Positions 3,746 through 45,887 of a DNA stretch of 64,000 nt are shown here, piece by piece. The stretch lies in IMG/VR virus record IMGVR_UViG_3300032138_000007, positions 29,245 to 93,244 of that record. One strand, written 5' to 3'. Position numbers and translations under genes: made by a program. This DNA comes from a virus (Duplodnaviria; Caudoviricetes). Position 1 is the first letter of the stretch. Every line of letters starts with the position of its first letter. Below the pieces are notes generated by a model, which was not told the DNA's origin, made no database searches, and saw only the letters and a program-made list of their open reading frames with translations.

Positions 3746-4435
3746 ATGGGATTTATAAATAATACTTCATATATTTTAAATGCAGTATTAACCAAAAAGG
3801 GTAAACAATATCTTGCAAAAAGTGATGGGAGTTTTAATATAACAAAATTCGCATTATCAGATGATGAGATAGATTATACTTTATGGGATATTGCACATCC
3901 AAAAGGGACTGATTATTATGGTGCTGTATTAGAATCTACACCAATGTTAGAACCATGTGTTGATCCTGAAGTTGTGATGAAATATAAATTAATTAATATG
4001 CCAGTAGGAACTAAGGCATTACCATATATTGGAAATATGACACCAACTTCGTTTCTTGGTTCAAATTCACTTAATTCTTCTCTTGTTGGTAATCCACCAA
4101 ATTGGGCGTTTAATACTGTTGTTCTTTCACCAGAGACACATGGTGCAAGCGAAGCTTTTTTAAATGAAGATTATAGTTTTTTAGTATTAAATAGAAATGT
4201 AGTTGATATAGGAATCGGTGAAGGAAGTACGGTAGATTATGATGTAGGTGCTGTATATAACGAAGAATCTGGTAGATTGAGTAAAAAAGTAGTTTCAAGA
4301 GTAGCAACTTTTAAAACAGGAATTGGTACGGTTGCAACATCAAGAGAAACATCAATTATTATAACTGGTCAAATGTCAGGAGCAATCTATGTTTTACCAA
4401 TAAAAGTTGATTATTTGGATAACACACCACAATAA
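3746..4435 (+). CDS. Structural protein, paralog family A
   Basis: NAVLTKKGK..ITKFALSDDEIDY; C-terminal TSIIITGQMSGA matches TSVIVTGDLSGA of 2858. Confidence 0.65.
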   Translation: MGFINNTSYILNAVLTKKGKQYLAKSDGSFNITKFALSDDEIDYTLWDIAHPKGTDYYGAVLESTPMLEPCVDPEVVMKYKLINMPVGTKALPYIGNMTPTSFLGSNSLNSSLVGNPPNWAFNTVVLSPETHGASEAFLNEDYSFLVLNRNVVDIGIGEGSTVDYDVGAVYNEESGRLSKKVVSRVATFKTGIGTVATSRETSIIITGQMSGAIYVLPIKVDYLDNTPQ

Positions 4436-4446
4436 AGAGATAAATT

Positions 4447-4836
4447 ATGGGATTTATAAATAAAGATACATTAACTATAGATGCGATACTTACAAACAAA
4501 GGTAGAGATTATTTAAGAAAAGCAGTATTTGGTGAAAACCAAAATGGAGAACACGTTATTACAAAATTTGCATTATCGGATGATGAGATAGATTATTCTT
4601 TGTGGGATGTAACACCGAGTGGTTCAAATTTTGTAAAACCATATGGTCAAGTGATTGATAACCAACCACTAACTGAACCCAATGTTAATTGGAAAACTCC
4701 AACTGATAGTGAAATTATGAGACATTTTATATTTAAACATAAAATTGGTGAGACAAATGAGGGTAATACCGATTCTTCTACTCCACCACCACCATCAGGT
4801 CCAATGGGTCCAAATAGTTCAAATGGAGTGATATAA
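4447..4836 (+). CDS. Structural protein, paralog family A (N-domain only, Pro-rich tail)
   Basis: DAILTNKGRD..ITKFALSDDEIDY; lacks the C-terminal domain. Confidence 0.65.
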   Translation: MGFINKDTLTIDAILTNKGRDYLRKAVFGENQNGEHVITKFALSDDEIDYSLWDVTPSGSNFVKPYGQVIDNQPLTEPNVNWKTPTDSEIMRHFIFKHKIGETNEGNTDSSTPPPPSGPMGPNSSNGVI

Positions 4837-5114
4837 TGATATTACAACATACTCAAACAGGACAAGATGGAATAGGACAAAAGAAAGTTTTATCTGGATT
4901 ATATTCAGTTCGATTAAAAGCTAAAAAAGTTTTATCAGTAAAAAATACTACTTTAAAGATTGAAGGAGAATCAAGTGGGGCAAGTTGGACAATTGGAGTA
5001 GTAGTTAATAGTGGAGATACAGTTTTAGAGTATTATCCACCACCAGTAAATCCAAATCCACCAAGTGGACCAGTAGCAGCATTTAGTTGGGTACTTGACG
5101 AATTACAGGCATAA
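4836..5114 (+). CDS. Small protein matching the last strands of the family A C-terminal domain
   Basis: TTLKIEGESSGASWTIGVVV aligns with TSIIITGQMSGAIYVLPIKV; TAATG coupling to the upstream gene. Confidence 0.6.
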   Translation: MILQHTQTGQDGIGQKKVLSGLYSVRLKAKKVLSVKNTTLKIEGESSGASWTIGVVVNSGDTVLEYYPPPVNPNPPSGPVAAFSWVLDELQA

Positions 5115-5123
5115 GATAAATAT

Positions 5124-5696
5124 ATGGGATATTTAGATAAAACGACACAAACTGTAACAGCACATTTTACCAAAAGAGGTAGAGAACTTTTAGCGGACGC
5201 TTTGGCAGGTAATACAAGTGGTGATTATATAATTACACAATTTGCACTTGGAGATGATGAGGTTGATTATTCTTTATACGATGAAAGTTTATCACCTAAT
5301 TTACGAGGTAAAGTTATTGAGAATATGCCACTTCTTGAGTCTTTTATTAACGAAGAAGAACTTATGAATTATTTTTTAAAAGATGCTCCTCCTGTAATGT
5401 TACAAAGTCAGTTATCAAATATACCTGCACAGATTACATTGGAAGGACTTGGAGATGTAATTGATATAAGTCCAATAACAGAAAATTTTACTTTTTTTAA
5501 CGAAGAAACACAAGAGAATCAAGATTGGGAAACATATACTTTTACTCTTGGTCATGATAATATGGTGGAAATGTATGATATAAATAATCCGCCTACAGCA
5601 GAATTTACATATGAAATAGATGTTCAAGGTTCTCCACCAGAAGGTACACCACCAAATGCAAATTTTAATTATCAAAATACAAATTTAATATTTTAA
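5124..5696 (+). CDS. Structural protein, paralog family A, ending in two P-x-A-x-F-x-Y peptides
   Basis: TAHFTKRGRELLA..ITQFALGDDEVDY; PTAEFTY and PNANFNY near the C-terminus. Confidence 0.65.
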   Translation: MGYLDKTTQTVTAHFTKRGRELLADALAGNTSGDYIITQFALGDDEVDYSLYDESLSPNLRGKVIENMPLLESFINEEELMNYFLKDAPPVMLQSQLSNIPAQITLEGLGDVIDISPITENFTFFNEETQENQDWETYTFTLGHDNMVEMYDINNPPTAEFTYEIDVQGSPPEGTPPNANFNYQNTNLIF

Positions 5697-5708
5697 AGGA
5701 GATATAAA

Positions 5709-6086
5709 ATGCCATTACCAACAATGAATTACGCACCATTGACAATCAGTTTTACTGATACATCTGCAGGTGATGGGCTGGCGTATTTGTGGGATTTCGG
5801 AGATGGTTCAACTTCAACGTTACGAAACCCAACACATACATTTCAAGCGGGAGCTTGGAGTGTTACTTTAACTGTAGAAAATGAAAATGGTTCAGACCAA
5901 ACTTCTGCAACAATAGTTGCTATACCACAAGGTGCAGGTGGTGGAAACGGAAAAGGTGGGAATGGTAAAGGTGGAAACGGAAAAGGTGGAAATGGTAAAG
6001 GTGGAAACGGAAAAGGTGGGAATGGTAAAGGTGGAAATGGTAAAGGTGGAAATGGTAAAGGTGGAAACGGAAAAGGGGGATTTTAA
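5709..6086 (+). CDS. PKD-domain protein with (GGNGK)9 tail
   Basis: APLTISFTDTS..YLWDFGDGSTST..NPTHTF..VTLTV is the PKD signature; AGGAG RBS. Confidence 0.85.
   Translation: MPLPTMNYAPLTISFTDTSAGDGLAYLWDFGDGSTSTLRNPTHTFQAGAWSVTLTVENENGSDQTSATIVAIPQGAGGGNGKGGNGKGGNGKGGNGKGGNGKGGNGKGGNGKGGNGKGGNGKGGF
5940..6074 (+). repeat. Nine 15-bp coding tandem repeats encoding GGNGK
   Basis: Units ggtggaaacggaaaa / ggtgggaatggtaaa / ggtggaaatggtaaa; 135 nt, synonymous variation only. Confidence 0.95.
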
Positions 6087-6508
6087 TCGAACCCAAAGCA
6101 AATTTTACTTTTGAACAACCATATAAACCAAATTTATCATCTAATAAGAATATTAAAAATAAGTTATTTAGTAGTGATAAAATAGAAGTTAAAAAATCCA
6201 CTTTGGAAGGATATGGAGTTTTTGCAAAAGAAGATATTAAAAGTGGAGAAGTATTAGAGGAATGTCATTATATAGAAGTTGGTAGTGACGGTGATGTTGA
6301 TAGATATAAATTTAATTGGCCAAGAGGAACAGAAAACCCTGAAAAAGTTGTGTTACCACTTGGATTTGGAAGTATTTACAATACAGTTATTAATGAAGAT
6401 GAAAAGACTGTAGATTGGAAAACTGATTTAAATAATGATATTTTTATATTTTATACTATAAAAAATATAAAAAAAGATGAGGAAATGTTAACGTATTATG
6501 ATTATTGA
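6086..6508 (+). CDS. SET-domain protein (putative lysine methyltransferase); start probably upstream of the listed TTG at 6203
   Basis: KIEVKKSTLEGYGVFAKEDIKSGE...IKNIKKDEEMLTYY is a SET fold; frame open from 6059; ATC at 6086 follows AGGGGGA. Start codon uncertain. Confidence 0.75.
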   Translation: MEPKANFTFEQPYKPNLSSNKNIKNKLFSSDKIEVKKSTLEGYGVFAKEDIKSGEVLEECHYIEVGSDGDVDRYKFNWPRGTENPEKVVLPLGFGSIYNTVINEDEKTVDWKTDLNNDIFIFYTIKNIKKDEEMLTYYDY

Positions 6509-6527
6509 TACAAAATTAAAGGAATGT

Positions 6528-6553: not shown

Positions 6554-7606
6554 ATGAGTAGTGAAACAAGTTTTTTCACCACGTTAAGTGGTGAAGATAA
6601 AAGAACTAATATACCGAGTACTATATCTTCTCCAGTATGGACGGGAGGAACAGCAACGCTAACTTCCTTCTATTCTGGATCTACACAAAGTGGTAGTAGT
6701 GGAAATTATTATTATGATGTGTTTGATAAAGTTGGAAGTGATACTACACGGGTTGTTCAATTCGCAGTAGCTTATGGCCATTACGATGGAAGTGGTTCGT
6801 TATCTACTTCTGCGGGAAATAATCCATCTAAGGCAGTATATCGTCAGTTTAGAAATGTATGTATTAGGAATGCTGGAAGTACAGATAAATTTAAATTTCC
6901 TGAAACTAATTCAACTGAATTTAAAGATGTTTATGTAATAAATGTAAACAGAGCACGATATAGAGAAAAGATAGATCCAGGCAATTGGGAACTTCATTTG
7001 AGTGGAAGTTCACCAACCGCACCAAACCATCCAATAAAATTAATTGACGATAGTGGAGCAACTTCAGATTCATCTGTAAAAGCATCACAGAGAGTTTTTA
7101 ATATAGTGAGTGGTTCAATTGGAACAGGGGCAACGGATATAAATACACAAGCTTCAGCAGAACCTATAGCATCTGGTTCATATGGATTGTTTTATCCTGA
7201 GTTAGGACTTATAATATTAAATGCAACTCGATTAGATATAGCATCTGATTTAAATCTTGGTACATCTGAAACTGCTAATACAAATATGAATAACTCATTG
7301 AAGTTATTTCGGGCAATACAAAGTGGTAGTAAATTTCAAGCACGTAGAGAAGAACAGATAAAATCATCTCACTTTTTCTGTAGGGTAAAATCTGATGAAT
7401 ATAATTTTAGTCAGAATCCAACCTACTTTCAAGGTACAAATGCAGAATTAACTAATACTACTTTTATTACTGATCCTAAGGCATATATAACTACAGTTGG
7501 TCTTTATAATGAACAAAATGAGTTATTGGCAGTTGCAAAGTTAAGTCAACCTTTATTGAAATCGAGAGATAGAGAAGCGGTAATTAAAGTACGATTAGAC
7601 TTTTAG
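6554..7606 (+). CDS. Structural protein, paralog family B
   Basis: NRARYREKIDPGNWELHL and C-terminal YITTVGLYNEQNELLAVAKLSQP..IKVRLDF shared with the next two genes. Confidence 0.65.
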   Translation: MSSETSFFTTLSGEDKRTNIPSTISSPVWTGGTATLTSFYSGSTQSGSSGNYYYDVFDKVGSDTTRVVQFAVAYGHYDGSGSLSTSAGNNPSKAVYRQFRNVCIRNAGSTDKFKFPETNSTEFKDVYVINVNRARYREKIDPGNWELHLSGSSPTAPNHPIKLIDDSGATSDSSVKASQRVFNIVSGSIGTGATDINTQASAEPIASGSYGLFYPELGLIILNATRLDIASDLNLGTSETANTNMNNSLKLFRAIQSGSKFQARREEQIKSSHFFCRVKSDEYNFSQNPTYFQGTNAELTNTTFITDPKAYITTVGLYNEQNELLAVAKLSQPLLKSRDREAVIKVRLDF

Positions 7607-32437: not shown

Positions 32438-33568
32438 ATGGCACTTCAAGACGGATTTAAAGTATTAAGTTTGACCATTATAGACGGTGGAGGCGGATGG
32501 GGTGGAGATACAACTGGTAAGTTAGTTATGAGATCACCTGGATCACAATCTATTTATGTTGGTAGTGGTTTTACAGGAACTTGGGAATCAGACCCAGGTG
32601 GAGTAATTGATGGAACTGCAATAACTGCAGCAGGTAAGAATTATTCATCTGGTTCTTGGGCATTTTCAACACATGGACGGGCAATTCCTGGAGAATTTTG
32701 TAGTATTGGAATTATGGGAACAGGATCAGGTTCATTAATAATACCAAAAATAGGACAAGATGCTTCAATCTCATTTAATCAATTAAATACAGAAAGGGGA
32801 GTTGGGGCTACCAGTGAAGCTTCTATTCACCAACTATATGAAGATTTTTCATCAATAGCAGGTTCAGTTCATACGGATGTAACAGGTAAACCTAATTTTG
32901 ATTGGTTTCAAGGTGGTCCCAGGTCGGCTTCTGGTGTAGATCCAGGAGAAGGCGGAATATATCAATCTCATCCAATTAGATTAGATGAATTTTATGGTTC
33001 TAATTATTCACAATATGGTGGTTTGGGTTGTCTTGGAATAGGAACACCTATAACAATGGCAGATGGTTCTACAAAGAACATAGAAGATATTAATATAGGA
33101 GAGTGGGTAAGAGCAGCAACCGTTCCTGGTATGCCATTAGACTTTGATGAAGAAAATACTTGGTCAGTTTGGGAAGGAACACCACACGGAAACCCACCCG
33201 GTTCAGTATGGGCAACTGCATATTATGATATACAGGAAACTAATCGAGTTACACCAGCAAGTGCATCAGTTATGGATATATATTTTGATTGGTATGAAAA
33301 TTATTATTTGATAAATAATTCTTTAAAGGCAACATTTGAACATCCATTTTTTGTGTTAAGAGATGGTAATTATCATTTTAAAACAACAGCTAGTTTGTTA
33401 CCTGGTGATAAATTATTTAAAACAGATAATGAATTTGAACAGATAGAAACGATTGAATTTATAAATGAACCATTAGAAACTGTCAATTTAAATGTAGAAC
33501 CTTTAGATGTTTATTTTGGAGGTGGTTATTTAATGCACAATGTACATGGAAAAGAAGCTGAAAGTTAA
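32438..33568 (+). CDS. Fibre-associated protein with C-terminal Hint (intein-like) domain
   Basis: CLGIGTPITMADGSTKNIEDI..TFEHPF..LMHN at 33029-33541. Confidence 0.85.
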   Translation: MALQDGFKVLSLTIIDGGGGWGGDTTGKLVMRSPGSQSIYVGSGFTGTWESDPGGVIDGTAITAAGKNYSSGSWAFSTHGRAIPGEFCSIGIMGTGSGSLIIPKIGQDASISFNQLNTERGVGATSEASIHQLYEDFSSIAGSVHTDVTGKPNFDWFQGGPRSASGVDPGEGGIYQSHPIRLDEFYGSNYSQYGGLGCLGIGTPITMADGSTKNIEDINIGEWVRAATVPGMPLDFDEENTWSVWEGTPHGNPPGSVWATAYYDIQETNRVTPASASVMDIYFDWYENYYLINNSLKATFEHPFFVLRDGNYHFKTTASLLPGDKLFKTDNEFEQIETIEFINEPLETVNLNVEPLDVYFGGGYLMHNVHGKEAES

Positions 33569-35207: not shown

Positions 35208-36725
35208 TTGGCAACACCACCCGCAGGAACAGCCTTATCATTAGGAAAATTAGGAAGAGCAACTGCTGTAGACAATTCTGATTATACATCTGCAACGAGT
35301 TTGAATGACTGTGCACGAGATAGTGGGACAGCCGCAACTAATTTGAGTAATTTTTATATAGGTTCGGTTGATAGCACTTTAGATGGTTATCCATATGTGG
35401 ATGAACAAACTAATGAAACATATGAATTAACTTTTACTAATGCAAATTCATTATTTGCATCTCGTATAGCAGCAAGAGCTGATAACTTCACTTGGACTAC
35501 CAGTAATTCATCATTATTTGATATGTCTGGTACTGAAGATGTTACTACTCAATTTAATGCAGGTGCACTTGCTGATACAAGTACACATACTTCAAAATCA
35601 TTTGAAGCTAATTTAGTTACAGACTCCGATTTTAATAATTGGTCAAGTGCTAATTTACTTGGTGATTGGACAGAGAGTGGTGGAACAGTAATTTCAAGAA
35701 AAGATATAACTGGATTTTCAACAAGACCATCTGGTTCAAATGATTATATGGTTCAATTTGATACATTAAATGGATACATAGAACAATCATTTACAGTTAA
35801 AGGAAATTCTACTTATCAGATTAAAGCAATAGCAACTTCTTCTGATGCGGGACAGGGAACAATAGATATGTATGTTAGTGGTGCATATACTCAATTAACT
35901 TGGAACGGAATAACTGGACCGGCAGGTACATATCACCAAACAAGAGATGATTTTTATACAAGTGGTTCGGTAGGAGTAGATCAAACTTTAAAAGTAAGAT
36001 TTACAGCAGTATCTGCTTCTGTTAAACCATTGTTAGATTATGTAACTTTCCAAAGATGGGAAGGTGCACATTTTAGTGATACAAATGTAACTATTACAGG
36101 AAAGTATCACGATGACGGACAGAGTGATGGATTTAACGACCACGCAACAAGATATAATACTGCTATAAGTAAAACTGTTGAGATACAAGATACATATGGT
36201 GGTCTTGCAATTGCTTGTTTTTTACCAGGAACTTTAATACAAATGGCAGATGATACTTCCAAACCAATAGAAGAAATAAATGTTGGGGATGAAGTGTTAT
36301 CATTAGATTTACCTGGATTACCAGATGAAGATTTAGGATATATCGAATGGAAATCTTATACTATGAGGCCAATGGATGAAGAAGATTTGGAAAATTTAAT
36401 ATCAAAAAATAAAAAATCTGCATTTGTAGAGAATTTATTTTATGATTATATGAGTGGATATTATAGTATAAATAATGGTTATTTAAAAGTAACTGCAGAA
36501 CATGACCTTTTTTCATATTCAGACGGAAAATGGAGATGGAATACTGCAAGTGAATTACAAAAAGATATGAAATTATTTGGTTATAATGGAGAGGTAATTA
36601 ATATAGATTCTATAGAATGGGTAAGTGGTGAAGTAGAAGTTATCAATTTTGATGTAGAACCATTAGATGTTTATTACGCGGGTGGATTATTGGTTCATAA
36701 TAAGGGATCAGACTCAGATCCGTGA
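35208..36725 (+). CDS. Fibre-associated protein with CBM-like domain and C-terminal Hint domain
   Basis: NLVTDSDFNNW..YIEQSF..PLLDYV is CBM4/9-like; CFLPGTLIQMAD..TAEH..LVHN at 36216-36701. Confidence 0.85.
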   Translation: MATPPAGTALSLGKLGRATAVDNSDYTSATSLNDCARDSGTAATNLSNFYIGSVDSTLDGYPYVDEQTNETYELTFTNANSLFASRIAARADNFTWTTSNSSLFDMSGTEDVTTQFNAGALADTSTHTSKSFEANLVTDSDFNNWSSANLLGDWTESGGTVISRKDITGFSTRPSGSNDYMVQFDTLNGYIEQSFTVKGNSTYQIKAIATSSDAGQGTIDMYVSGAYTQLTWNGITGPAGTYHQTRDDFYTSGSVGVDQTLKVRFTAVSASVKPLLDYVTFQRWEGAHFSDTNVTITGKYHDDGQSDGFNDHATRYNTAISKTVEIQDTYGGLAIACFLPGTLIQMADDTSKPIEEINVGDEVLSLDLPGLPDEDLGYIEWKSYTMRPMDEEDLENLISKNKKSAFVENLFYDYMSGYYSINNGYLKVTAEHDLFSYSDGKWRWNTASELQKDMKLFGYNGEVINIDSIEWVSGEVEVINFDVEPLDVYYAGGLLVHNKGSDSDP

Positions 36726-37928: not shown

Positions 37929-38651
37929 ATGTCAATATTAAATCGTGGTTGGATTTACGATTCAATAACAAGAAATCAAGATTCAGGTTCAGTATCATAT
38001 AGATGGACTCACGGAGCTAACGACTCATATATGGGTGCTGGTATATTTTATTATGCCATCCCATATTTCTTAAAGGCACAAGTTAATGTTTGTCTTGGTA
38101 GTGGTGGTGGATATGTACCACGATTGATGGTTGATTGTGTTTATGAATTAAATGAAACTAATATGTATCCTAACGGAAAGTTTGGTGAAGTTTATGTAGT
38201 AGATGCAACCAATAGTGTAAATGGTGAAGTGGATTGGTCAGATGATGACAGTTATTTAAGAAGTAATTTTCAAATAAAATTTCTCAATATGACTACTGAA
38301 GATGCATTCTATAACTTTTTTGTCAAACGAGATATAAAGATAGATTATTTACATATAGATGCAGGTCATACTTATGAGGATTGTAAACAAGATTTTGATT
38401 TGTATTCTACTTTAATGAGTGAGAATGGAATTATATCAATACACGATACGGATGAAAAATACTGGAAAAGTTTTGATGTATATGAAGGTGAGCCCCACGA
38501 TATATGTACAGGTCCAAGTGAAGTTGTAAAAGAAATTAGTTTCCTTAACCGAGAATGGGAAGTATTTAATTTGTTTGATTATAAACAAAAAGATGAAGTA
38601 TTACCTTCATCTGGATTAACATTATTGAGAAAATCTACGTATGGCAAATAA
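37929..38651 (+). CDS. Class I SAM methyltransferase (Methyltransf_24-like)
   Basis: CLGSGGG, IDYLHIDAGHTYE, GIISIHD. Confidence 0.8.
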   Translation: MSILNRGWIYDSITRNQDSGSVSYRWTHGANDSYMGAGIFYYAIPYFLKAQVNVCLGSGGGYVPRLMVDCVYELNETNMYPNGKFGEVYVVDATNSVNGEVDWSDDDSYLRSNFQIKFLNMTTEDAFYNFFVKRDIKIDYLHIDAGHTYEDCKQDFDLYSTLMSENGIISIHDTDEKYWKSFDVYEGEPHDICTGPSEVVKEISFLNREWEVFNLFDYKQKDEVLPSSGLTLLRKSTYGK

Positions 38652-40692
38652 TTCATTTTTATTAACACATAACATAAAAAAATTAACAGATGCAGAAATA
38701 GAAGCCATAAACGAAGAATTTGGTCATTGGGATGATATAGAACATTTACCTTGGGTAACGAAAAAAATAGAAGAAAAATCTGATTCATATACGAATGCTT
38801 ATATGAAACATTTTCAGTTTCTTATTGATCAAGAAGCAAAATTAGGTCAATATGCATCAGAAGAATGGTTGAGAATTCATTTTCAAGAATTCCAAAAGAA
38901 AGAAACTGAGTGGATTAGAGAGAAAATAAAAGATTATATTCCTACTACTATTAGTGAAATGTTAGAAAGTTTAAAATGGTTAGAACAATGTTATGAACAC
39001 CACACTCCATTTATAGAAGAAGGAATAAAATTTTATAAAGGCCGTGGAGTGGAAATAAGTAATCCATACGATGAATGTCAAGAAAGATTATTACTTGAAG
39101 AATGTGAGAAGTTTGATACTGAATATATTACAAGAGAAATTATTAGACTAAAAGATGAATATTTAATTCGTGATCCAAAAGAAGAATTGAAACATAGAAT
39201 GAATCTTAATTTTTTTGAGGATAATGTAAAAGATAAAGAAAAAATAGCAGATAAAGATACATTTTGGGATATGATTTCAGTTCATGGTCTGGAAAATATG
39301 CAACTTCTCAAAGAAGAATTAAATGATGTTGGTAAAGGATTTTGTTTGGCTAAGTGGAATCAAGTTAGTATTCTTTTACAGACGGGTCAAACTCATTCTT
39401 GTCACCATCCGAGACCACACGTAGTTCCATTAGCAGAATTAGAAGATAATCCATCTGCACTTCATAATACATATTTTAAAAAACAACAAAGAAAAACAAT
39501 GTTACAAGGGGGGCGTCCAAAAGAATGTGATTATTGTTGGAATGTAGAAGATGCAAATCCAGGAGCATTTAGTGATAGGATTATGAAAAGTGGTGAAGCG
39601 TGGGCATTTCCTTATTTTGATAGAATCAAAAGGTCTGATCCGATGGAAAATACTAATCCATCATATGTTGAAGTTAGTTTTTCCAACCAATGTAATATGA
39701 GTTGTGGTTACTGTGATGTAAAGAGTAGTTCTAATTGGCAACACGAAATAGCATCAAAAGGACATTATCCAACAAGTGGAATGTATAACAATACGGAGTG
39801 GATGGAACGAGAAGGAATTGTTCCTATTCCATTTACAAAACCAAATCCATATAGAGAAGCATTTTGGAAGTGGTGGCCTGATTTATATCCAACATTACAT
39901 ACTTTTAGAATAACTGGAGGAGAACCACTTTTACATAAAGATACCTTTAAAGTTTTAGATTATATTATAGATAATCCAAAATTAAATCCTATGTTAGAAA
40001 TGTCTGTTAATAGTAATTTATGTGCAACACAAGATTTATTTGAAGAGTTTGTTGATAAGGTTAAGTACATTACAGAGAAAGATTTAGTTTGGAATTTTGC
40101 ATTATTTACGAGTATAGAATCTTGGGGAACTCAAGCAGAATATATGAGAGATGGAATGGATACTGATAGATTTTGGAATAATTTGGATATGTTTTTAACT
40201 AAGTGTCAAAAACCAGAAGCAACTATAATGTCTACCTATAATTTAACGAGTGTTCCAAGTTATCATGAAGTAATTAAAAAAGTATTTGATTTAAAAAAGA
40301 AACATTATAACGGAAAACGATATAGACATTATGCAATTATTTTGGATACTGCCTATTTAAGACATCCAGAGTTTTTACAAGTTCGTTTATTATCTACGTA
40401 TTGGATTGATAAGATACGGGCTGATGTAAAATTAATGACTTCATTGGCAGAGGAAAAATATACTCATGTTTATGGACACGGCCATAGTGGATTTTATGAT
40501 TTTGAAAGAGAAAAATTAAGACGAGTGTTGGATTGGGTGGATGCACCACTTGATGATGTAAAGTGGTTAATAAAAATGAGAAAAGATTTTGTTTTATTTA
40601 TTGATGAGTTTGATAAAAGACGAGGAAAGAACTTTTTAGAAACTTTTCCAGAAATGGAAGATTTTTATAATTCTTGTAAAAAGTTAATATGA
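38641..40692 (+). CDS. Radical SAM protein with twitch-type Cys motifs and helical N-terminal extension
   Basis: CNMSCGYC, ITGGEPL, FCLAKW, SCHHP, ECDYCW. Confidence 0.88.
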   Translation: MANNSFLLTHNIKKLTDAEIEAINEEFGHWDDIEHLPWVTKKIEEKSDSYTNAYMKHFQFLIDQEAKLGQYASEEWLRIHFQEFQKKETEWIREKIKDYIPTTISEMLESLKWLEQCYEHHTPFIEEGIKFYKGRGVEISNPYDECQERLLLEECEKFDTEYITREIIRLKDEYLIRDPKEELKHRMNLNFFEDNVKDKEKIADKDTFWDMISVHGLENMQLLKEELNDVGKGFCLAKWNQVSILLQTGQTHSCHHPRPHVVPLAELEDNPSALHNTYFKKQQRKTMLQGGRPKECDYCWNVEDANPGAFSDRIMKSGEAWAFPYFDRIKRSDPMENTNPSYVEVSFSNQCNMSCGYCDVKSSSNWQHEIASKGHYPTSGMYNNTEWMEREGIVPIPFTKPNPYREAFWKWWPDLYPTLHTFRITGGEPLLHKDTFKVLDYIIDNPKLNPMLEMSVNSNLCATQDLFEEFVDKVKYITEKDLVWNFALFTSIESWGTQAEYMRDGMDTDRFWNNLDMFLTKCQKPEATIMSTYNLTSVPSYHEVIKKVFDLKKKHYNGKRYRHYAIILDTAYLRHPEFLQVRLLSTYWIDKIRADVKLMTSLAEEKYTHVYGHGHSGFYDFEREKLRRVLDWVDAPLDDVKWLIKMRKDFVLFIDEFDKRRGKNFLETFPEMEDFYNSCKKLI

Positions 40693-41537
40693 TTAATTTA
40701 GTTACGGTTTGTGGTCATAATACTACAATGTTAAGACATATGTTAAATCACTATAAAGATATGGTTGATGAAATTTATGTTATAGTATATTTATCTTCGG
40801 ACAAGGATAGGGTTTTATCAGAAGTTAAAGAAATCACGAGTGATTTAAATATTGATATTCATAGAAAAACTTTTGAAGAACCATTTAATTGGGAAAGAGT
40901 TACAGAGTTATATAATGAAACAAAGTTATTAAAACCTAATGATTGGTGGATTGTATCGGATGATGATGAACTTCATGTTTATCCAAAACCAATTAACGAA
41001 CTAATAGAAGATTGTGAGAAGAATGGTTATAAATTTATTACAGGAGCGTTTTTAGATAGAATAGGAGAAGGTGGTAGATTTCCAAAGATAAATGATGATA
41101 GTGATATTTGGAAAGAGTTTCCATTGGCTGGTTCATTTAGATTACCAGTTTCAAATGCCTGTCCAAATAAGACAGTAGTTGTAAAGGGTGATATCCAAAT
41201 TACTAATGGACAACATTATGCGATGATAGATGGTGAAGATACTTATGGAGATAGATGGAATCATCCATTACGATATCCTGTTGATAAGTGTTTTATTCAA
41301 GTTCATCATTTTAAATGGGACATATCTGTAATGGGTAGATTACGAGAAGTTTCTCGTATTAAAAAAGATTATACTTTCCATAAAGAGTATAGAGATATGT
41401 TTGATTACATAATTGATAATTACGGTAGAATAGATATAGAAGATGAAAGGTTTATGATAGAAAAGGGTAGTAAAAATTATGATGGTTATACACATTGGAA
41501 TGAAATAAAAAAACAGGCATTAAAGTATAGATTATGA
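40689..41537 (+). CDS. GT-A (GT2-like) glycosyltransferase
   Basis: MLRHMLNHY, WWIVSDDDE, GQH, VHHFKW. Confidence 0.75.
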   Translation: MINLVTVCGHNTTMLRHMLNHYKDMVDEIYVIVYLSSDKDRVLSEVKEITSDLNIDIHRKTFEEPFNWERVTELYNETKLLKPNDWWIVSDDDELHVYPKPINELIEDCEKNGYKFITGAFLDRIGEGGRFPKINDDSDIWKEFPLAGSFRLPVSNACPNKTVVVKGDIQITNGQHYAMIDGEDTYGDRWNHPLRYPVDKCFIQVHHFKWDISVMGRLREVSRIKKDYTFHKEYRDMFDYIIDNYGRIDIEDERFMIEKGSKNYDGYTHWNEIKKQALKYRL

Positions 41538-43003
41538 AAAGATTAGCGGTTATACTTCCATATGATGAACAACATATAGAAAATTTTGTAAATCATTTTG
41601 ATGCTACAGTAGATGGTGATTATAAATTAGTTTTTATGAAACAAAAATCAAATAGACCATTAAATAAAGGTAAGTTGTTTAATATAGGATATATGCTGCA
41701 TAAGGATAAATATGATTATTTTTGTTTTCATGATTCAGATTTAATACCAATTTCTGATGAGTGTGATTATTCTTTTGAAGGAAAACCGATTTCATTAGTT
41801 GGTATGAGAAATAAAATAGAATTTGGAGATCAATTAGAGGTTCAAAATTTTGACAATTATAGTTTACCTTATGATGAATATTTTGGTGGAGCAATTTTAT
41901 TTTCAAAAGAACATTTCCAAAAAGTAAATGGATATTCAAATGAATATTGGGGTGTTGGTTATGAAGATTATGATCTGTTATTACGTAGTGTTGTAGGAGA
42001 ACTATCTGTAAGAATGGAATTGGAAACTACAGTATCAAAAACTTATGGAAATTTTAATGGACTGAATTCATACATAGAAATTCCAGTAGAAAATGCAAAG
42101 ATTAAAAAAGCAACAAACAAGAGTTTTACAATGTCTGCTTGGTTTTGTCCTGACGGAGAACCATCTTACAGTTCAACCGTAGATACTAATAGATGTGAAT
42201 ATAGTATTTTTATACGACCAGGATATCATATGGGACTTTCATATACTCACGGTGGATTTTTAAAAGGAGTGATTTGGATTAGACCATTTGGAAGTAGTGA
42301 AAGAGAACCAGTAGTAATACAAACACCATTACGAACTAATCAATGGTATCATGTTGGTATGAGTGTAGACGAGATAAATCAGGAAATGATTCTTTATGTA
42401 AATGGTAAAGAAGTTGGTAAACAACAATATGAAGGAGAACTTATTAAGTATCTCAATAAACCATATTATATAGGAGTAGGAGATCCAACTACAACACAAT
42501 GGAGAAATTTTTATGAAGGACAAATAGCAGAAATAGGATTATGGCCAGATACATTAAAAGATTATGAACTGGAATTGATTTTTAATAAAGGGATAGTTAA
42601 CAATAAAGGTGAATATACAATTTCTAAATTACCAGTAGGAGTTTGGGATTTTAAAGGTGGATATGATGATAGAACTTTTGATATAAGTGGAAATGGAAAC
42701 CATGCAAAATTCTATAATGTCGGATTTGCAAATAAATCTTTAAAAAGTAATACAGAAAGATATTTACCTTATAGAAGAAATGGTGCTTATGGTTATTTAT
42801 CATCACGTGAAGATTATTTAAATCTTGAACATTTAAAGAGAAGTGAACATCCTGAAATAATGACCAATTGTAATACTTTTAATAAAAAGGTTAGAAATGA
42901 AATGAAGGATATGGATACAGATGGATTATCATCAACAAGATTTAGGATAGTCAATAGATATGATTATCAAAAAAAACATGAAATAATAGAAGTTGTAATA
43001 TAA
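41534..43003 (+). CDS. GT7 (beta-1,4-galactosyltransferase-like) with inserted LamG domain, paralog 1
   Basis: LNKGKLFNIG, FHDSD, YFGG, NGYSNEYWGVGYEDYD, LamG, DGLSS. Confidence 0.85.
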   Translation: MKRLAVILPYDEQHIENFVNHFDATVDGDYKLVFMKQKSNRPLNKGKLFNIGYMLHKDKYDYFCFHDSDLIPISDECDYSFEGKPISLVGMRNKIEFGDQLEVQNFDNYSLPYDEYFGGAILFSKEHFQKVNGYSNEYWGVGYEDYDLLLRSVVGELSVRMELETTVSKTYGNFNGLNSYIEIPVENAKIKKATNKSFTMSAWFCPDGEPSYSSTVDTNRCEYSIFIRPGYHMGLSYTHGGFLKGVIWIRPFGSSEREPVVIQTPLRTNQWYHVGMSVDEINQEMILYVNGKEVGKQQYEGELIKYLNKPYYIGVGDPTTTQWRNFYEGQIAEIGLWPDTLKDYELELIFNKGIVNNKGEYTISKLPVGVWDFKGGYDDRTFDISGNGNHAKFYNVGFANKSLKSNTERYLPYRRNGAYGYLSSREDYLNLEHLKRSEHPEIMTNCNTFNKKVRNEMKDMDTDGLSSTRFRIVNRYDYQKKHEIIEVVI

Positions 43004-43014
43004 GGAGAAAAGTT

Positions 43015-43407
43015 ATGGCAACTAAAAAAGAAGAAAAACCAGTTGAAGAGATAACAACTGAAACTAAAGAAACTGGAATTAAAGCAGAGGATCAACCTTG
43101 GAATAAGAAAAAAGATGCTCGTGACGAACTTGATTCTAACGAGGGAGTCGAACTTTCTGTAATCGCAGTTAAGGCATTGACTAACGTAGAAGAAAAGTTA
43201 GAGGCAATCGATTGGAAATTGTGGGAAATCTACAATATAGTTAAGAACTATGTAGAGTCTAATCCAGATAGTGGAGTATCAGCCCCATCAGTTACACAAC
43301 CACAAGCATCTGCGGCAGACATTGCAAGTGAAATTGCAAAGGCTTTAGGATCTACAGAAGAACCTAAAGAAAAGAAGTCTGTAGTCGGCAAATTATTCGG
43401 TAAATAA
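43015..43407 (+). CDS. Hypothetical helical protein (LEAIDWKLWE motif)
   Basis: AAGGAG RBS; short coiled-coil core with disordered flanks. Confidence 0.65.
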   Translation: MATKKEEKPVEEITTETKETGIKAEDQPWNKKKDARDELDSNEGVELSVIAVKALTNVEEKLEAIDWKLWEIYNIVKNYVESNPDSGVSAPSVTQPQASAADIASEIAKALGSTEEPKEKKSVVGKLFGK

Positions 43408-44888
43408 TGAGTGAAAAACTTGCAATTATAGTTCCGTATCGGGACAGAGAAGAACATCTTGCAAAATTCGTACCACATATGGAGAAATTTTTATCTGATA
43501 AAGATATAGATTTTAAAATCTTTGTGGTAGAACAAGGGAATGATAGACCTTTTAATCGTGGTTGGCTCATAAACATTGGATATGATATATCATCTCAACA
43601 AGGATATGATTATTTTTGTTTTCATGATGTTGATATGTTACCAGAGGACAAAACTTGTGATTATTCTTGGGTAGATAAACCAACACATCTTGCAGCGAGA
43701 TTGAGTAAATTCAATTATCGTTTAGTCTATCCTGAATATTTTAGTGGAGTTACATTATTCAACAAAGAACACTTTGAGTGGATAAATGGATACTCTAACA
43801 AATATTGGGGATGGGGATTTGAAGATGATGATTTACTTTATCGATGTAGAACTCGTGGAGTTCCATTAGACGAACAATGGGTAGGTTCATCACGAGATAA
43901 GGCACCCAGATACATAAGTACTATGGAGTTTAATGGACGAGATTATCTTGAGATAAAGAATAGTCTTTCATTAAATAAAGTGGTGAACTCATCATTTTCA
44001 GTTGAGGCCTGGGTAGAACCATCAGACGATTTAGAATTGGATGAGAATAAAGAATATGATGAATTTCATGTTTTTACTCGACCAGGACATCACGTAGGAA
44101 TTGCTTATACAAGTGGAATGCAATATAAAGGTGGTATTTGGAATACAGAAAATAAACAGGCAATGGTTGTTTCAGATAGACGAACTAACGAATGGGTTCA
44201 TGTTGTATATACAATCGACCATTTATTAAAACGATTACGGATGTTTGTAAATGGTGTAGAAGTAAATGAATCACCTACTGATTTCTTGGGTAAAATTAAA
44301 GAGTCAAACAATGTTCCATATTATATTGGATGTGCAAATCCACACTCACGTTTTGAAGATAGAGGTTATTTTAAGGGTTCTATTGCACAAATAACTCTTT
44401 GGTCAAGTTGTATAAATCCAGAAGAAGCATCTTATTTATATAATGATGGATTCCCACGAAATGTTACAGATAAGAAAAATTTTGATGGTTGGAAACAAGG
44501 AACAGAAATTTATAAATCTTCAAAAGATGTAGTTGGTTATTGGAATTTTGATAATATAGTTGGTGATGTGGTACTTGATAAAAGTGGAAATGACAATCAT
44601 GCTAAAATACACGGAGCAATTCAAAAGGAAAAAGAATTGAGAATAGGTAGTGTTGCATTAATACCAAACAGAAGAGATGGAAAATTCACTTGTTTAGAAC
44701 ACGAAGAAAATGGTTGGAGTCAAACTAAGTTCACTCATTGGGAAACACGAGAAAATCAATTACGATTTTTTAACAAGGTAAGGCGGGGACTAATAGATCC
44801 AACAAAAGATGGTTTGAATTCTTTAACATATAAAGTTATACATCGAGAAGAATTTTTAGATAAACACGAATTTATATCAGTTACATAA
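43407..44888 (+). CDS. GT7 with inserted LamG domain, paralog 2
   Basis: IVPYRDREEHL, FNRG, FHDVD, WGWGFEDDD, LamG, DGLNSLTY. Confidence 0.9.
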   Translation: MSEKLAIIVPYRDREEHLAKFVPHMEKFLSDKDIDFKIFVVEQGNDRPFNRGWLINIGYDISSQQGYDYFCFHDVDMLPEDKTCDYSWVDKPTHLAARLSKFNYRLVYPEYFSGVTLFNKEHFEWINGYSNKYWGWGFEDDDLLYRCRTRGVPLDEQWVGSSRDKAPRYISTMEFNGRDYLEIKNSLSLNKVVNSSFSVEAWVEPSDDLELDENKEYDEFHVFTRPGHHVGIAYTSGMQYKGGIWNTENKQAMVVSDRRTNEWVHVVYTIDHLLKRLRMFVNGVEVNESPTDFLGKIKESNNVPYYIGCANPHSRFEDRGYFKGSIAQITLWSSCINPEEASYLYNDGFPRNVTDKKNFDGWKQGTEIYKSSKDVVGYWNFDNIVGDVVLDKSGNDNHAKIHGAIQKEKELRIGSVALIPNRRDGKFTCLEHEENGWSQTKFTHWETRENQLRFFNKVRRGLIDPTKDGLNSLTYKVIHREEFLDKHEFISVT

Positions 44889-44889
44889 A

Positions 44890-45873
44890 ATGTATCAACA
44901 AGTAATAGACAAACTTTTACGGATTACTGATTCTATTCCTTGGTTCAAGGCATGTGATAAGACTAATATGTTTTATGATAAAGAACTTGATAAGATTATA
45001 ATTGATTTTAGTTATGAATCTCTTGATGGTAATGGAATAAAACATTTTGACAAATTTAGTGAAGAAAATGATATTCCGATAGATAAGATATTATTTTTAA
45101 ATGGTAATTTGAGACACAAATATAGTTATGTGTATTCAGTTTGGTATTTTGCACATAGATTAAAAAAAATATTTAATAATGAATTACCTTGGGTAACTAA
45201 TCAGGGACAAAAGTTTGGATTAGTAGATTTTAATGTAGAAAAAAGAAAAATTTATAATTGTTTTAATAATTCACAACATTCACATAGAACAACTGTATAT
45301 GATTTATTAGAAGAAAATGATTTATTACAATATGGTTATGTATCATATAGAGATAAGGGTATATTTTTACCTGAAGAAGTTGAGAATGTAACTTCATTAA
45401 AATCTCCTGAAAAAATGACTGTAGATTTTGAAGATTGTGATGTTTCTTATGGAGCATTCAATCCATTGGTTACGAGTAGAACATATTTTAATTTAGTAAC
45501 GGAAACTCATTGTGAAACTGATGATTTATTTATTACGGAAAAGACATTGAAGGCTTTAATTTCTCAACCGTTTATTGTTGTTGGTAATTATGGTATATTA
45601 GAATACTTAAAAGGAAATGGGTTCGAAACTTATTCTGAAATATTTGATGAAAGTTATGATTTAATAGAAGATCATAATGAAAGAGTTACGTTTATAATAA
45701 ATGAAGTTAAGAGATTATGTGAAATGGATACAAATGAATTACAAAAAATATACAAATCTGTATTATGGAAAATAGAACATAATAGAAATGTTATAATGAA
45801 TTGGAAAACGGATGAGTTACTTGAAGATTTAAAAATTAGACACATTGGATTTCCAGACCATCAAAGTTTTTAA
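44890..45873 (+). CDS. GT10-like/GT-B glycosyltransferase-like protein, paralog 1
   Basis: FNLVTET..FITEKTLK..QPF..GFETY..FDESYD. Confidence 0.55.
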   Translation: MYQQVIDKLLRITDSIPWFKACDKTNMFYDKELDKIIIDFSYESLDGNGIKHFDKFSEENDIPIDKILFLNGNLRHKYSYVYSVWYFAHRLKKIFNNELPWVTNQGQKFGLVDFNVEKRKIYNCFNNSQHSHRTTVYDLLEENDLLQYGYVSYRDKGIFLPEEVENVTSLKSPEKMTVDFEDCDVSYGAFNPLVTSRTYFNLVTETHCETDDLFITEKTLKALISQPFIVVGNYGILEYLKGNGFETYSEIFDESYDLIEDHNERVTFIINEVKRLCEMDTNELQKIYKSVLWKIEHNRNVIMNWKTDELLEDLKIRHIGFPDHQSF

Positions 45874-45887
45874 TAGGAAACAGATAA

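What the first reader, a model, noticed from the sequence alone, without database searches (positions are those of the whole stretch)
5709..6508. SET methyltransferase gene coupled to a (GGNGK)9 lysine-repeat tail
Seen: a SET gene overlaps the stop of a protein whose tail presents nine evenly spaced Lys in a flexible Gly context; the repeat varies only synonymously, so the peptide is under selection. Inference: an enzyme-substrate pair giving a histone-tail-like methylated virion appendage (protease shielding or surface binding). Caveat seen: the usual NHS motif reads YNT and there are no post-SET cysteines.
Basis: partly seen in the sequence, partly recalled or inferred. Interest (0 to 1): 0.75.

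Follow-up and report, generated by a model that had tools for sequence, protein, structure and literature searches.

The report
Phage SET methyltransferase beside lysine-tailed PKD protein
An uncultured marine phage encodes, in its tail-fibre gene block, a small Ig-like (PKD) protein ending in nine GGNGK repeats followed by a tiny histone-methyltransferase-type (SET) enzyme; the two genes are real and coupled, but related phages show they are not an obligatory enzyme-substrate pair.

Summary
ORF 5709-6086 is a PKD-domain protein whose only lysines are nine GGNGK units. The next frame (open 6059-6508) is a vSET-like minimal SET methyltransferase with its SAM and catalytic residues kept.

- GGNGK tails occur with no SET in the same slot (L038, L040, L042).
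- SET sits behind a PKD protein with no lysine at all (L131/L133).
- SET relatives occur in many other contexts.
- The tail is a hypervariable, slippage-made low-complexity region (GK, Q-rich, GGPPP, GGGS in relatives).
- SET is a roughly 450-nt mobile cassette.

Two results partly revive a link. The clade-specific N-terminal extension of this SET (PKANFTF) resembles the PKD first-strand tags on neighbouring tail proteins, and the PKD gene lacks that strand. All tagged SETs, at four separate places in a backbone tree, sit behind lysine-bearing tails.

The gene has no ATG/GTG/TTG start. The likely start is ATC at 6086, with a Shine-Dalgarno tract 6 nt upstream and a TAATC stop-start overlap.

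The scan has noted SET genes beside lysine-rich tails on other DNA before. Nothing here shows methylation.

The parts
5124..5696 (+). Upstream tail-module protein (190 aa, paralog family beginning MGYLDK...). It has two C-terminal PKD first-strand-like tags: PTAEFTY at 5592-5612 and PNANFNY at 5652-5672.
   Evidence: ORF list. Motif hits. The tags are conserved at this position in 14 related loci. An AlphaFold model of the read-through places the first tag as a strand completing the PKD fold.
5070..5090 (+). A third first-strand-like tag (PVAAFSW), at the C-terminus of the 92-aa protein 4836-5114.
   Evidence: Ranks 3rd of 20,394 windows with a scoring matrix built from the upstream-protein tags.
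5709..6086 (+). PKD 'socket' protein, 125 aa. The PKD domain (residues 9-70, nt 5733-5918) lacks its first beta-strand and is followed by a disordered tail.
   Evidence: Pfam PKD_4 7e-17, matching profile positions 20-81 of 85. A contiguous, unsplit version of the domain exists in L053.
5940..6080 (+). (GGNGK)9 repeat: 15-nt unit x 9.4 copies, or 30-nt unit x 4.7. It holds all 9 lysines of the protein; tail pI 10.9.
   Evidence: The same 15-mers occur in L128, L038, L040 and L042.
6071..6088 (+). Junction AAAAGGGGGATTTTAATC. It contains a purine-rich Shine-Dalgarno-like tract (6071-6079), the PKD stop TAA (6084-6086) and an overlapping ATC (6086-6088), the proposed near-cognate SET start.
   Evidence: The genome uses Shine-Dalgarno motifs with a modal spacing of 7 nt and has five TAATG stop-start overlaps. 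L128 keeps ...GGGGGGACTTTAATCGAA.
6086..6508 (+). SET-domain protein-lysine methyltransferase gene, about 140 aa from the ATC (frame open from 6059). The core is acidic (pI 4.5). The mechanical ORF start, TTG 6203, lies inside the domain.
   Evidence: Pfam SET 32 bits. vSET 2e-7. AlphaFold pLDDT 84, with Foldseek top hit vSET 3kma at TM 0.82. Conserved G42, G44, Y98, N99, E133, Y138.
6092..6112 (+). PKANFTF: a PKD first-strand-like tag inside the clade-specific, disordered N-terminal extension of SET.
   Evidence: One of only 4 matches to the tag pattern in 20,811 residues of window proteins. Ranks 6th of 20,394 windows with the scoring matrix. Residues 1-18 have pLDDT below 50 in the SET-only model. 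Related forms occur in L128, L002, L003, L146 and L148.
6074..6524 (+). Extent of the SET cassette. It is present in the window and absent from the syntenic site of L038. It is 84-99% identical to L128, against about 70-78% in the flanks.
   Evidence: blastn breakpoints. Sliding identity profile. dS 0.13 for SET against 0.63 for the PKD domain.
6554..7606 (+). Downstream conserved tail-module protein (350 aa). It is the right-hand anchor of the synteny.
   Evidence: It has homologs in Flavobacterium phage immuto next to annotated tail fibre and tail spike genes.

Best explanation
These are two separate late genes in the tail-fibre module of a large uncultured marine phage.

Gene 1 is a small PKD (Ig-like) 'socket' protein that lacks its first beta-strand. 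It ends in a slippage-generated, fast-evolving disordered tail, which in this lineage is (GGNGK)9.

Gene 2 is a mobile cassette of about 450 nt encoding a minimal, vSET-like protein-lysine methyltransferase.
- It is translated at a low level from a near-cognate ATC start. That start sits 6 nt after a Shine-Dalgarno-like tract and overlaps the PKD stop codon (TAATC).
- Its clade-specific N-terminal extension imitates the PKD first-strand tags on neighbouring tail proteins. It probably docks the enzyme on the PKD socket during tail assembly.
- That would put the nine Gly-flanked lysines of the tail, and other Lys-rich tails of the module, within reach as facultative substrates.

The pairing is not obligatory, and the general target of the SET family is unknown.

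Shown: gene identities, fold, conserved catalytic residues, cassette mobility, absence of a canonical start, and the presence/absence pattern in relatives.

Inferred, with my odds: an active enzyme (about 0.7), ATC initiation (about 0.55), docking through the tag (about 0.4), methylation of the tail lysines (about 0.3).
For: SET identity and fold. Family-conserved GxG, Tyr, Asn and C-terminal Tyr are all present.

Cassette behaviour:
- A clean 450-nt presence/absence difference against L038.
- A block of 84-99% identity to L128 confined to SET.
- dS 0.13 for SET against 0.63 for PKD.

Start codon:
- No canonical start lies upstream of the conserved N-terminus.
- The Shine-Dalgarno tract is 6 nt from the ATC, and the TAATC geometry matches five TAATG junctions in this genome.
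- The ATC and the purine tract are kept in L128.
- L148/L150 have AAGGAGG + 6 nt + ATA, L131/L133 have GAGGA + 7 nt + ATT, and L138/L139 have GGTGGAG + 6 nt + ATT at the expected start.
- The start-less 101-aa gene call recurs on 30 or more contigs, as several haplotypes.

Docking:
- The PKD gene lacks strand A (profile match starts at position 20 of 85).
- L053 has the same domain unsplit.
- The read-through AlphaFold model puts an upstream tag in the strand-A position (pLDDT about 82), and the model then aligns to whole PKD domains (Z 11-12.6, rmsd 1.8-2.3).
- The SET tag matches the tag motif.

Association: all tagged SETs (window, L002, L128, L003, L146, L148) follow Lys-bearing tails, at four separate positions in the backbone tree. 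The untagged SET of L131 follows a Lys-free tail.

The acidic SET core (pI 4.5) is electrostatically complementary to the basic tail (pI 10.9).
Against: - GGNGK tails exist without SET in the slot (L038, L040, L042), and no SET was found elsewhere on those fragmentary contigs.
- SET persists behind a lysine-free PKD protein (L131/L133).
- Tail composition is not conserved: Q-rich, GGPPP, GGGS and K/R/E-rich versions occur.
- The tag is only moderately conserved among SET orthologs. The Pro is lost in L128 and L002, and the scoring-matrix ranks of L003 and P0005 are unremarkable.
- The SET-tail association can be explained without function. The cassette's left recombination arm is the GK repeat itself, and GK codons supply Shine-Dalgarno and start sequences for SET in the overlapping frame.
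- dN/dS of SET within the clade is 0.56-0.68, which is weak constraint, based on only 7-8 synonymous changes.
- No complex prediction of SET with PKD could be run.
Confidence: 0.42

Rival explanations
1. Unlinked accessory gene ('moron'). The SET cassette merely sits at a recombination-permissive gene boundary in the tail module. It methylates a host protein (for example a nucleoid or translation protein) or some other phage protein. The PKD tail is an unrelated disordered spacer or brush, and the tag resemblance is coincidental.
For: - SET relatives lie in many contexts: after large unannotated structural-looking proteins, beside a tail fibre with an S74 chaperone domain, beside lysozyme, and beside SbcCD-type nuclease genes.
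- Presence and absence are independent of the tail in both directions.
- The cassette is mobile.
- Conservation of the tag is imperfect.
Against: - The N-terminal extension is found only in SETs behind split-PKD genes, and it keeps F, a hydrophobic residue at +2, and PY in 6 of 6 lineages.
- The six best scoring-matrix hits in the 64-kb window all lie in the tail-fibre module at about 3746-6130, one of them the SET tag.
- Tagged SETs co-occur with Lys-bearing tails in 4 of 4 independent backbone positions, against 3 of 10 for the other groups (Fisher about 0.035).
Confidence: 0.33
2. The (GGNGK)9 tail evolved as the dedicated substrate of the adjacent SET, giving a histone-tail-like methylated virion appendage whose function needs the modification.
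For: - Adjacency and translational coupling.
- All Lys of the protein are in the tail, in a Gly context like the histone H4 tail (the H4 comparison is from general knowledge).
- Charge complementarity.
- The association with tagged SETs.
- Precedents for multi-lysine methylation of surface fibres tuning adhesion or shielding from ubiquitylation: AtaA/KmtA (PMC11784438) and OmpB/PKMT (PMC8232902). Tail-protein methylation is required for adsorption in a mycobacteriophage (PMC13445384).
Against: - GGNGK tails of the same 15-mers persist without SET (L038, L040, L042).
- Tails switch to Lys-free compositions in close relatives.
- SET is kept with a Lys-free PKD protein in L131, which belongs to the same backbone clade as the window.
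- The weak start codon and relaxed dN/dS are not what an essential partner would show.
Confidence: 0.12
3. In this particular lineage the SET gene is silenced or decaying. A 14-nt indel cut it off from the ATG/GTG starts used in relatives, so little or no protein is made.
For: - The window is the only one of 63 distinct SET frames with no canonical start upstream of the first strand.
- A 14-nt difference from L128 changes the frame relation to the repeat that carries the starts.
- dN/dS is 0.56-0.68.
Against: - The 48-codon upstream extension stays open in 32% GC DNA.
- The N-extension is nearly identical to that of L128 (1 change in 96 nt).
- The start-less form occurs as several haplotypes on 30 or more contigs with the reading frame intact.
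- A Shine-Dalgarno tract and an ATC sit at the right spacing.
Confidence: 0.08
4. Programmed -1 frameshift (or transcriptional slippage) at GGA_AAA_GGG_GGA fuses PKD-(GGNGK)9 to SET, making the repeat a linker within one protein.
For: The SET frame is -1 relative to the PKD frame. A4 and G5 runs lie at the junction, and no canonical start exists.
Against: - The frame relation is not conserved: -1 in the window, +1 in L128, L002, L003 and L146, -1 in L131, and the same frame separated by stops in L133.
- Relatives have their own starts, so no conserved frameshift signal exists.
- The near-length homolog search (77-245 aa) found none, but it cannot detect a fused form of about 270 aa, and the 'longer' length option was not run.
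Confidence: 0.05

Closest known systems
PBCV-1 vSET (A612L; PDB 1n3j, 3kma), the minimal viral SET-domain histone H3K27 methyltransferase
   Same: Best sequence match among solved structures (2e-7) and best structural match (TM 0.82 normalised to vSET, 30% identity). It shares the single-domain size and the lack of pre- and post-SET Cys clusters. It also keeps the GxG, Asn and C-terminal Tyr motifs.
   Different: - This one is encoded by a phage of a prokaryote, which has no histone H3.
- The NHS motif reads NT.
- The C-terminus ends two residues after the catalytic-motif Tyr.
- It carries a disordered N-terminal extension of about 30 residues with a PKD-strand-like tag.
- It has no canonical start codon.
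Prokaryotic SET enzymes acting on Lys-rich DNA-binding proteins: Chlamydia cpnSET on Hc1/Hc2, and Methanosarcina Go1-SET on MC1-alpha (from general knowledge, not tested here)
   Same: A small SET enzyme paired with a lysine-rich non-histone target in an organism without eukaryotic chromatin.
   Different: Those targets are nucleoid proteins. Here the candidate is the tail of an Ig-like tail-module protein, and the gene pairing is not conserved.
Multi-lysine methylation of surface fibres: Acinetobacter KmtA on AtaA (PMC11784438) and Rickettsia PKMT1/2 on OmpB (PMC8232902). Also host MepM-dependent methylation of mycobacteriophage tail protein Gp34 (PMC13445384).
   Same: Methylation of exposed residues on fibrous or adhesive surface proteins changes adhesion, shields lysines from ubiquitin-type conjugation, or is needed for adsorption. 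That is the kind of role proposed for a methylated tail appendage.
   Different: The KmtA and PKMT1/2 enzymes are outer-membrane protein lysine methyltransferases, non-SET from general knowledge; MepM's enzyme class was not checked. All are encoded by the cell, not the phage. The Gp34 sites lie in an ELS motif, not at lysines. No methylation has been shown here.
Donor-strand complementation (chaperone-usher pili), and the split-PKD 'plug-and-socket' noted earlier in this scan on other marine phage contigs (e1-5976848)
   Same: An Ig-like domain lacking one edge strand, with short peptide tags on partner proteins supplying it. The SET N-terminus carries such a tag.
   Different: Here the tagged partner would be an enzyme rather than a structural subunit. 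The complementation is predicted only for an upstream structural tag, not for SET.
Ig-like decoration domains of tailed phages (for example T4 Hoc; from general knowledge)
   Same: A small accessory Ig-like or PKD module encoded among the structural genes.
   Different: A single strand-deficient domain with a hypervariable low-complexity tail, rather than tandem complete domains.

Membership tests
SET domain protein-lysine methyltransferases (Pfam PF00856) | Match to the family profile above the curated cut-off | tested here: met
   32 bits against a cut-off of 22.4, covering profile positions 1-104 of 105. Also 30.9 bits in the six-frame genome search.
SET domain protein-lysine methyltransferases (Pfam PF00856) | SET beta-fold | tested here: met
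   AlphaFold pLDDT 84, pTM 0.77. The top 40 or more Foldseek hits are all SET or PR domains, with vSET first at TM 0.82. The pseudoknot itself was not inspected.
SET domain protein-lysine methyltransferases (Pfam PF00856) | N-terminal GxG SAM-binding motif | tested here: met
   G42-Y-G44 is invariant in 19 relatives and aligns to GGYG of vSET.
SET domain protein-lysine methyltransferases (Pfam PF00856) | Asn of the (R)xxNH(S) motif | tested here: met
   N99 is at least 90% conserved. Y98-N99 aligns to F-N of vSET's FNHS.
SET domain protein-lysine methyltransferases (Pfam PF00856) | His of the NH(S) motif | tested here: not met
   It reads Thr. The position is H, S, T, A or C across the phage relatives. 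From general knowledge, this residue contacts SAM mainly through its backbone, so the change need not abolish activity.
SET domain protein-lysine methyltransferases (Pfam PF00856) | C-terminal catalytic Tyr in the E-E-x-x-x-Y motif | tested here: met
   E133 is invariant and Y138 is at least 90% conserved.
SET domain protein-lysine methyltransferases (Pfam PF00856) | SAM binding and methyl transfer to lysine | not testable with these tools
   Needs a biochemical assay.
PKD domain (Pfam PF18911 / PF00801) | Profile match above the cut-off | tested here: met
   61.7 bits (cut-off 27) and 49.1 bits (cut-off 23.5).
PKD domain (Pfam PF18911 / PF00801) | Complete seven-strand domain in one chain | tested here: not met
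   The match starts at profile position 20 of 85, so the first strand is missing from the gene. That strand is present as tags on neighbouring proteins and is contiguous with the domain in L053.
Dedicated enzyme-substrate gene pair (SET plus Lys-repeat tail) | Co-occurrence of both partners in relatives | tested here: not met
   GGNGK tail without SET: L038, L040, L042. SET with a Lys-free PKD protein: L131/L133. SET alone in many contexts. Caveat: the contigs are fragments.
Programmed ribosomal frameshift fusion | Conserved frame relation and slippery site across relatives | tested here: not met
   The frame relation is -1, +1 or 0 in different relatives.
Donor-strand (first-strand tag) docking partners of the split PKD domain | Tag motif P-x-[AS]-[NDE]-F-x-aromatic/hydrophobic in a disordered terminal segment | tested here: met
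   PKANFTF at residues 3-9 of SET. It is one of 4 pattern hits in 20,811 residues and ranks 6th of 20,394 windows with the scoring matrix. The segment has pLDDT below 50.
Donor-strand (first-strand tag) docking partners of the split PKD domain | Physical complementation of the PKD domain by the tag | tested here: inconclusive
   Predicted for the upstream protein's tag only.

The most novel reading that the evidence does not exclude
A phage-encoded 'writer on a socket'. A minimal SET lysine methyltransferase carries a PKD first-strand tag and plugs by strand complementation into the strand-deficient PKD module of the tail-fibre apparatus. There it methylates that module's own Gly-Lys brush and the neighbouring Lys-rich tails. 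The result would tune adhesion, or mask lysines from host lysine-directed attack such as the Bil ubiquitin-like conjugation of tail fibres (10.1101/2023.09.04.556158). Expression would be throttled by an AUC/AUU/AUA start codon.
Probability: 0.22. Interest if true: 0.8.

Novelty: new variant of a known kind. Interest (0 to 1): 0.5.

Why it matters
No phage-encoded SET enzyme has a known substrate. The literature searches made here found none. Among 50,697 deposited phage records, only two uncultured megaphage records carry a relative.

This locus offers a concrete, cheap test system:
- a 140-aa enzyme;
- a 125-aa neighbour with nine identical candidate sites;
- a putative docking tag that can be mutated;
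- natural controls, namely relatives with a tail but no SET, and with SET but no lysine.

If the link holds, it would be the first case of a virus writing lysine methylation on its own tail apparatus. It would connect with recent findings that tail-protein methylation and lysine-directed host defences decide infectivity. If it fails, the locus still documents two things: a mobile SET cassette that spreads between phage backbones, and repeated use of AUH near-cognate start codons to throttle an enzyme encoded among highly expressed structural genes.

Tried and rejected
- **TTG 6203 as the start:** rejected. It removes the first SET strand, and the conserved upstream region is coding in all relatives.
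- **Frameshift fusion:** rejected as a conserved mechanism, because the frame relations differ among relatives.
- **Homopolymer or assembly error as the cause of the missing start:** unlikely. The start-less gene call recurs on 30 or more contigs as several haplotypes. The difference from L128 is a 14-nt indel, not a change in G-run length.
- **A conserved C-terminal Gly-Phe anchor on the tails:** considered and dropped, because tail ends vary.
- **'Upstream proteins of other SETs are Ig-like':** not supported. Pfam found nothing in eight of them, and an S74 chaperone domain in L004's neighbour only.
- **Short G-K endings on unrelated upstream proteins (L005, L129-L139):** these are explained by the Shine-Dalgarno sequence of the SET gene lying in the end of the upstream gene, not by a substrate motif.
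- **Pfam profile on the read-through sequence:** the match did not extend over the tag.
- **Nucleotide searches:** the search of deposited phages and the exact-pattern scan of viral contigs for the junction found nothing.
- **PHROGs:** no function was returned for either gene.
- **The look-up of encoding contigs:** The DNA of the closest relatives (P0002, P0004, P0019, P0026) could therefore not be inspected.
Full report
**What the window is.** The window is part of a 93-kb IMG/VR virus contig, estimated about 47% complete. All genes lie on one strand. Shine-Dalgarno motifs precede 32 of 54 starts, with a modal spacing of 7 nt, and five gene junctions are TAATG overlaps. GC content is 32%. Proteins flanking the finding have homologs in Flavobacterium phage immuto, Microcystis phage Mel-JY01 and Rhodothermus phage RM378. 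In immuto they lie beside genes annotated tail fibre and tail spike. The finding therefore sits in the tail-fibre module of a large tailed phage.

**Observation.**
- ORF 5709-6086 encodes 125 aa. Residues 9-70 are a PKD domain (PKD_4 7e-17).
- The rest is a tail made of nine exact GGNGK units, encoded by a 15-nt repeat at 5940-6080 (9.4 copies; as a 30-nt unit, 4.7 copies at 91%).
- The PKD domain has no lysine. All nine Lys are in the tail (tail pI 10.9).
- Three 15-mer variants differ at three sites, all third codon positions. This supports the reading frame. It amounts to about three events inherited through the 30-nt unit, and the codons used are the genome's preferred ones.
- The next frame is open from 6059 to 6508. 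It matches Pfam SET above the cut-off and PBCV-1 vSET among solved structures (2e-7).
- An AlphaFold model built on 19 relatives has pLDDT 84. Its best Foldseek hits are vSET (TM 0.82), a Plasmodium SET and S. pombe Set7, followed by MLL, EZH2 and G9a SET domains.
- The residues conserved across the phage relatives are all present: G42, G44, Y98, N99, E133, Y138.
- The NHS motif reads NT here. That position varies (H, S, T, A, C) in the family. There is no post-SET region, as in vSET.

**The start problem.**
- The mechanical ORF starts at TTG 6203. The first SET strand (KIEVKKS) and a conserved extension lie upstream of it, and no ATG/GTG/TTG exists between the stop at 6056 and 6203. Among 63 distinct SET frames in the fetched loci, this is the only one without a canonical candidate.
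- The PKD stop TAA (6084-6086) overlaps an in-frame ATC (6086), 6 nt after the purine tract AAAAGGGGG. This is the geometry of the genome's own TAATG junctions.
- L128 (87% identical SET) keeps ...GGGGGGACTTTAATCGAA. It differs from the window by a 14-nt indel that changes the frame relation to the repeat.
- Other relatives show a strong Shine-Dalgarno motif followed at 6-7 nt by ATA (L148/L150), ATT (L131/L133) or ATT (L138/L139) where the start is expected. Others use ATG, GTG or TTG.
- The start-less 101-aa call occurs on 30 or more contigs as several haplotypes, so it is not an assembly slip.
- A conserved frameshift fusion is excluded, because the PKD-to-SET frame relation is -1, +1 or 0 in different relatives.
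- I read this as near-cognate (AUC) initiation that keeps an enzyme scarce among abundant structural proteins (odds about 0.55). The same problem had been flagged on this window by another first-stage note (e1-5945584). The comparative support is new.

**Comparative test of the pair.** Using the SET, the PKD protein and the upstream protein as probes, I collected about 200 loci.

| Loci | SET in the slot | Tail of the PKD protein |
|---|---|---|
| Window, L128, L002, L003, L146, L148/L150 | Present, with N-terminal tag | GK-bearing |
| L131/L133 | Present, no tag | (GGPPP)n; the whole PKD protein has no lysine |
| L038, L040, L042 | Absent | GGNGK tails built from the same 15-mers; the next gene follows directly |
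| L036, L037, L039 | Absent | Q-rich |
| L052 | Absent | GGGS |
| L053-L056 | Absent | Short |
| L057-L060 | Absent | Long K/R/E-rich |

- The window differs from L038 by a clean insertion of about 450 nt, at 6074-6524.
- SET relatives also occur after large unannotated proteins, beside a tail fibre with an S74 chaperone domain, beside lysozyme, and beside SbcCD-type genes.
- One caveat: the SET-less contigs are 5-17% fragments, on which no SET was found elsewhere.

**SET is a mobile cassette.**
- Between the window and L128, identity is 84-99% across 6069-6473, against about 70-78% in the PKD and downstream genes.
- dS is 0.13 for SET against 0.63 for the PKD domain.
- The left edge of the block is the end of the GK repeat.
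- dN/dS of the SET core within the clade is 0.56-0.68, based on few changes.

- The PKD gene lacks its first beta-strand: the profile match starts at position 20 of 85.
- The upstream protein ends in two copies of the canonical first-strand motif (PTAEFTY, PNANFNY), and the 92-aa protein ends in one (PVAAFSW). These tags are conserved across related loci.
- L053 has the same domain unsplit.
- An AlphaFold model of the natural read-through (stop read as Gln) places the first tag as a strand (pLDDT about 82). The model then superposes on complete PKD domains from residue 8 to 122 (Z 11-12.6, rmsd 1.8-2.3).
- The SET N-terminal extension is disordered in the SET-only model. It is present only in SETs that follow split-PKD genes, and it contains PKANFTF.
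- The tag pattern occurs four times in 20,811 residues of window proteins, all within 1.1 kb of the PKD gene.
- A scoring matrix built only from the upstream-protein tags ranks the SET tag 6th of 20,394 windows. All six top hits lie in the tail-fibre module, at about 3746-6130.
- Conservation among orthologs is partial. F, the hydrophobic residue at +2 and a following PY are kept in 6 of 6 lineages; Pro is kept in 4 of 6.
- On a backbone tree, tagged SETs occupy four separate positions, all with Lys-bearing tails. Three of ten other groups have GK tails (Fisher about 0.035). The untagged, Lys-free L131 lies in the same clade as the window.

**Weighing.**
- The association could be functional: a docked enzyme with a proximal substrate.
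- It could also be mechanical. The cassette recombines through the GK repeat. In relatives the SET start and Shine-Dalgarno motif are written in the +1 frame of the GK codons, so that GGNGK reads VETEK.
- My odds: SET is an active methyltransferase 0.7; it docks on the PKD socket 0.4; the tail lysines are methylated 0.3.
- The strict 'dedicated pair' reading gets 0.12. An unlinked accessory gene gets 0.33. Decay in this lineage gets 0.08. A fusion gets 0.05.

**Comparison with what is known.**
- The enzyme is a new phage member of the vSET-like minimal SET group.
- Lysine methylation of surface fibres is known for AtaA/KmtA (PMC11784438) and OmpB/PKMT, where it blocks ubiquitylation (PMC8232902). 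Host-dependent methylation of a mycobacteriophage tail protein is needed for adsorption (PMC13445384).
- Bacterial Bil systems conjugate a ubiquitin-like protein to phage central tail fibres (10.1101/2023.09.04.556158; 10.1101/2023.09.26.559546). A lysine-masking role is therefore conceivable, but it is untested.
- No paper on a phage SET substrate was found. Only two deposited phage records, both uncultured megaphages, carry a relative.
- The scan has noted SET genes next to Lys-rich tails in other genomes (e1-3005155, e1-4635434, e1-5365432, e1-5829601) and phage cupin-SET fusions (e1-3447711). Those are leads, not evidence.

**Limits.**
- Nothing here demonstrates methylation.

Noticed in passing
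window 5124-5936; loci L002, L003, L052, L128, L131, L133, L038, L039: The upstream protein and the PKD gene are in the same reading frame in 10 of 15 related loci, in several (window, L002, L003, L052, L128) separated by a single TAA. Together they read as one complete PKD domain split at the loop after the first strand. L053 has the unsplit form.
   Followed up: partly
L128:2339-2932, L002:3830-4423, L146:2375-2923; proteins P0026-P0028, P0034: Overprinting. In relatives the SET frame runs through the GK repeat in the +1 frame, so GGNGK is also read as VETEK/MVKVE. Gene callers start SET there, giving 155-169-aa proteins with a Lys/Glu-rich repeat N-terminus.
   Followed up: partly
L148:2480-2500, L131:2495-2515, L133:768-790, L138:925-945: Several SET genes of this family have ATA or ATT, 6-7 nt after a strong Shine-Dalgarno motif, where relatives have ATG. 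This suggests repeated use of near-cognate starts.
   Followed up: partly
IMG/VR contig 3300025096_002712 (L004 and L148): One 106-kb phage contig carries two different SET genes. One is tagged and follows a PKD gene. The other is untagged and sits beside a tail fibre with an S74 chaperone domain.
   Followed up: no
L012, L015-L028: A longer SET subfamily (225-270 aa) has a C-terminal GCGCG motif and a FRSMVVP motif. It always lies between an Mre11/SbcD-like and an SbcC-like gene.
   Followed up: no
L003:4474-4764, L040:4418-4765, L042:4493-4858, L146:2940-3344: The 92-aa-family proteins of the related backbones also carry hypervariable charged low-complexity tails (KEKKK, REEER, GGPPP). Such tails are therefore a general trait of the small proteins in this module.
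   Followed up: no
window 41534-47396: Three tandem paralogs combine a galactosyltransferase-type domain (Glyco_transf_7N/7C) with a Laminin_G_3 lectin-like domain. A radical-SAM-like protein lies at 38641-40692.
   Followed up: no
window 32438-33568 and 35208-36725: Two proteins have weak Hint-domain matches at their C-termini, below the Pfam cut-off.
   Followed up: no
proteins P0004, P0017 (near-identical contigs): Public gene calls read the SET stop TGA as Trp and run on for 14 residues. These look like calls made with genetic code 4 rather than real extensions.
   Followed up: no
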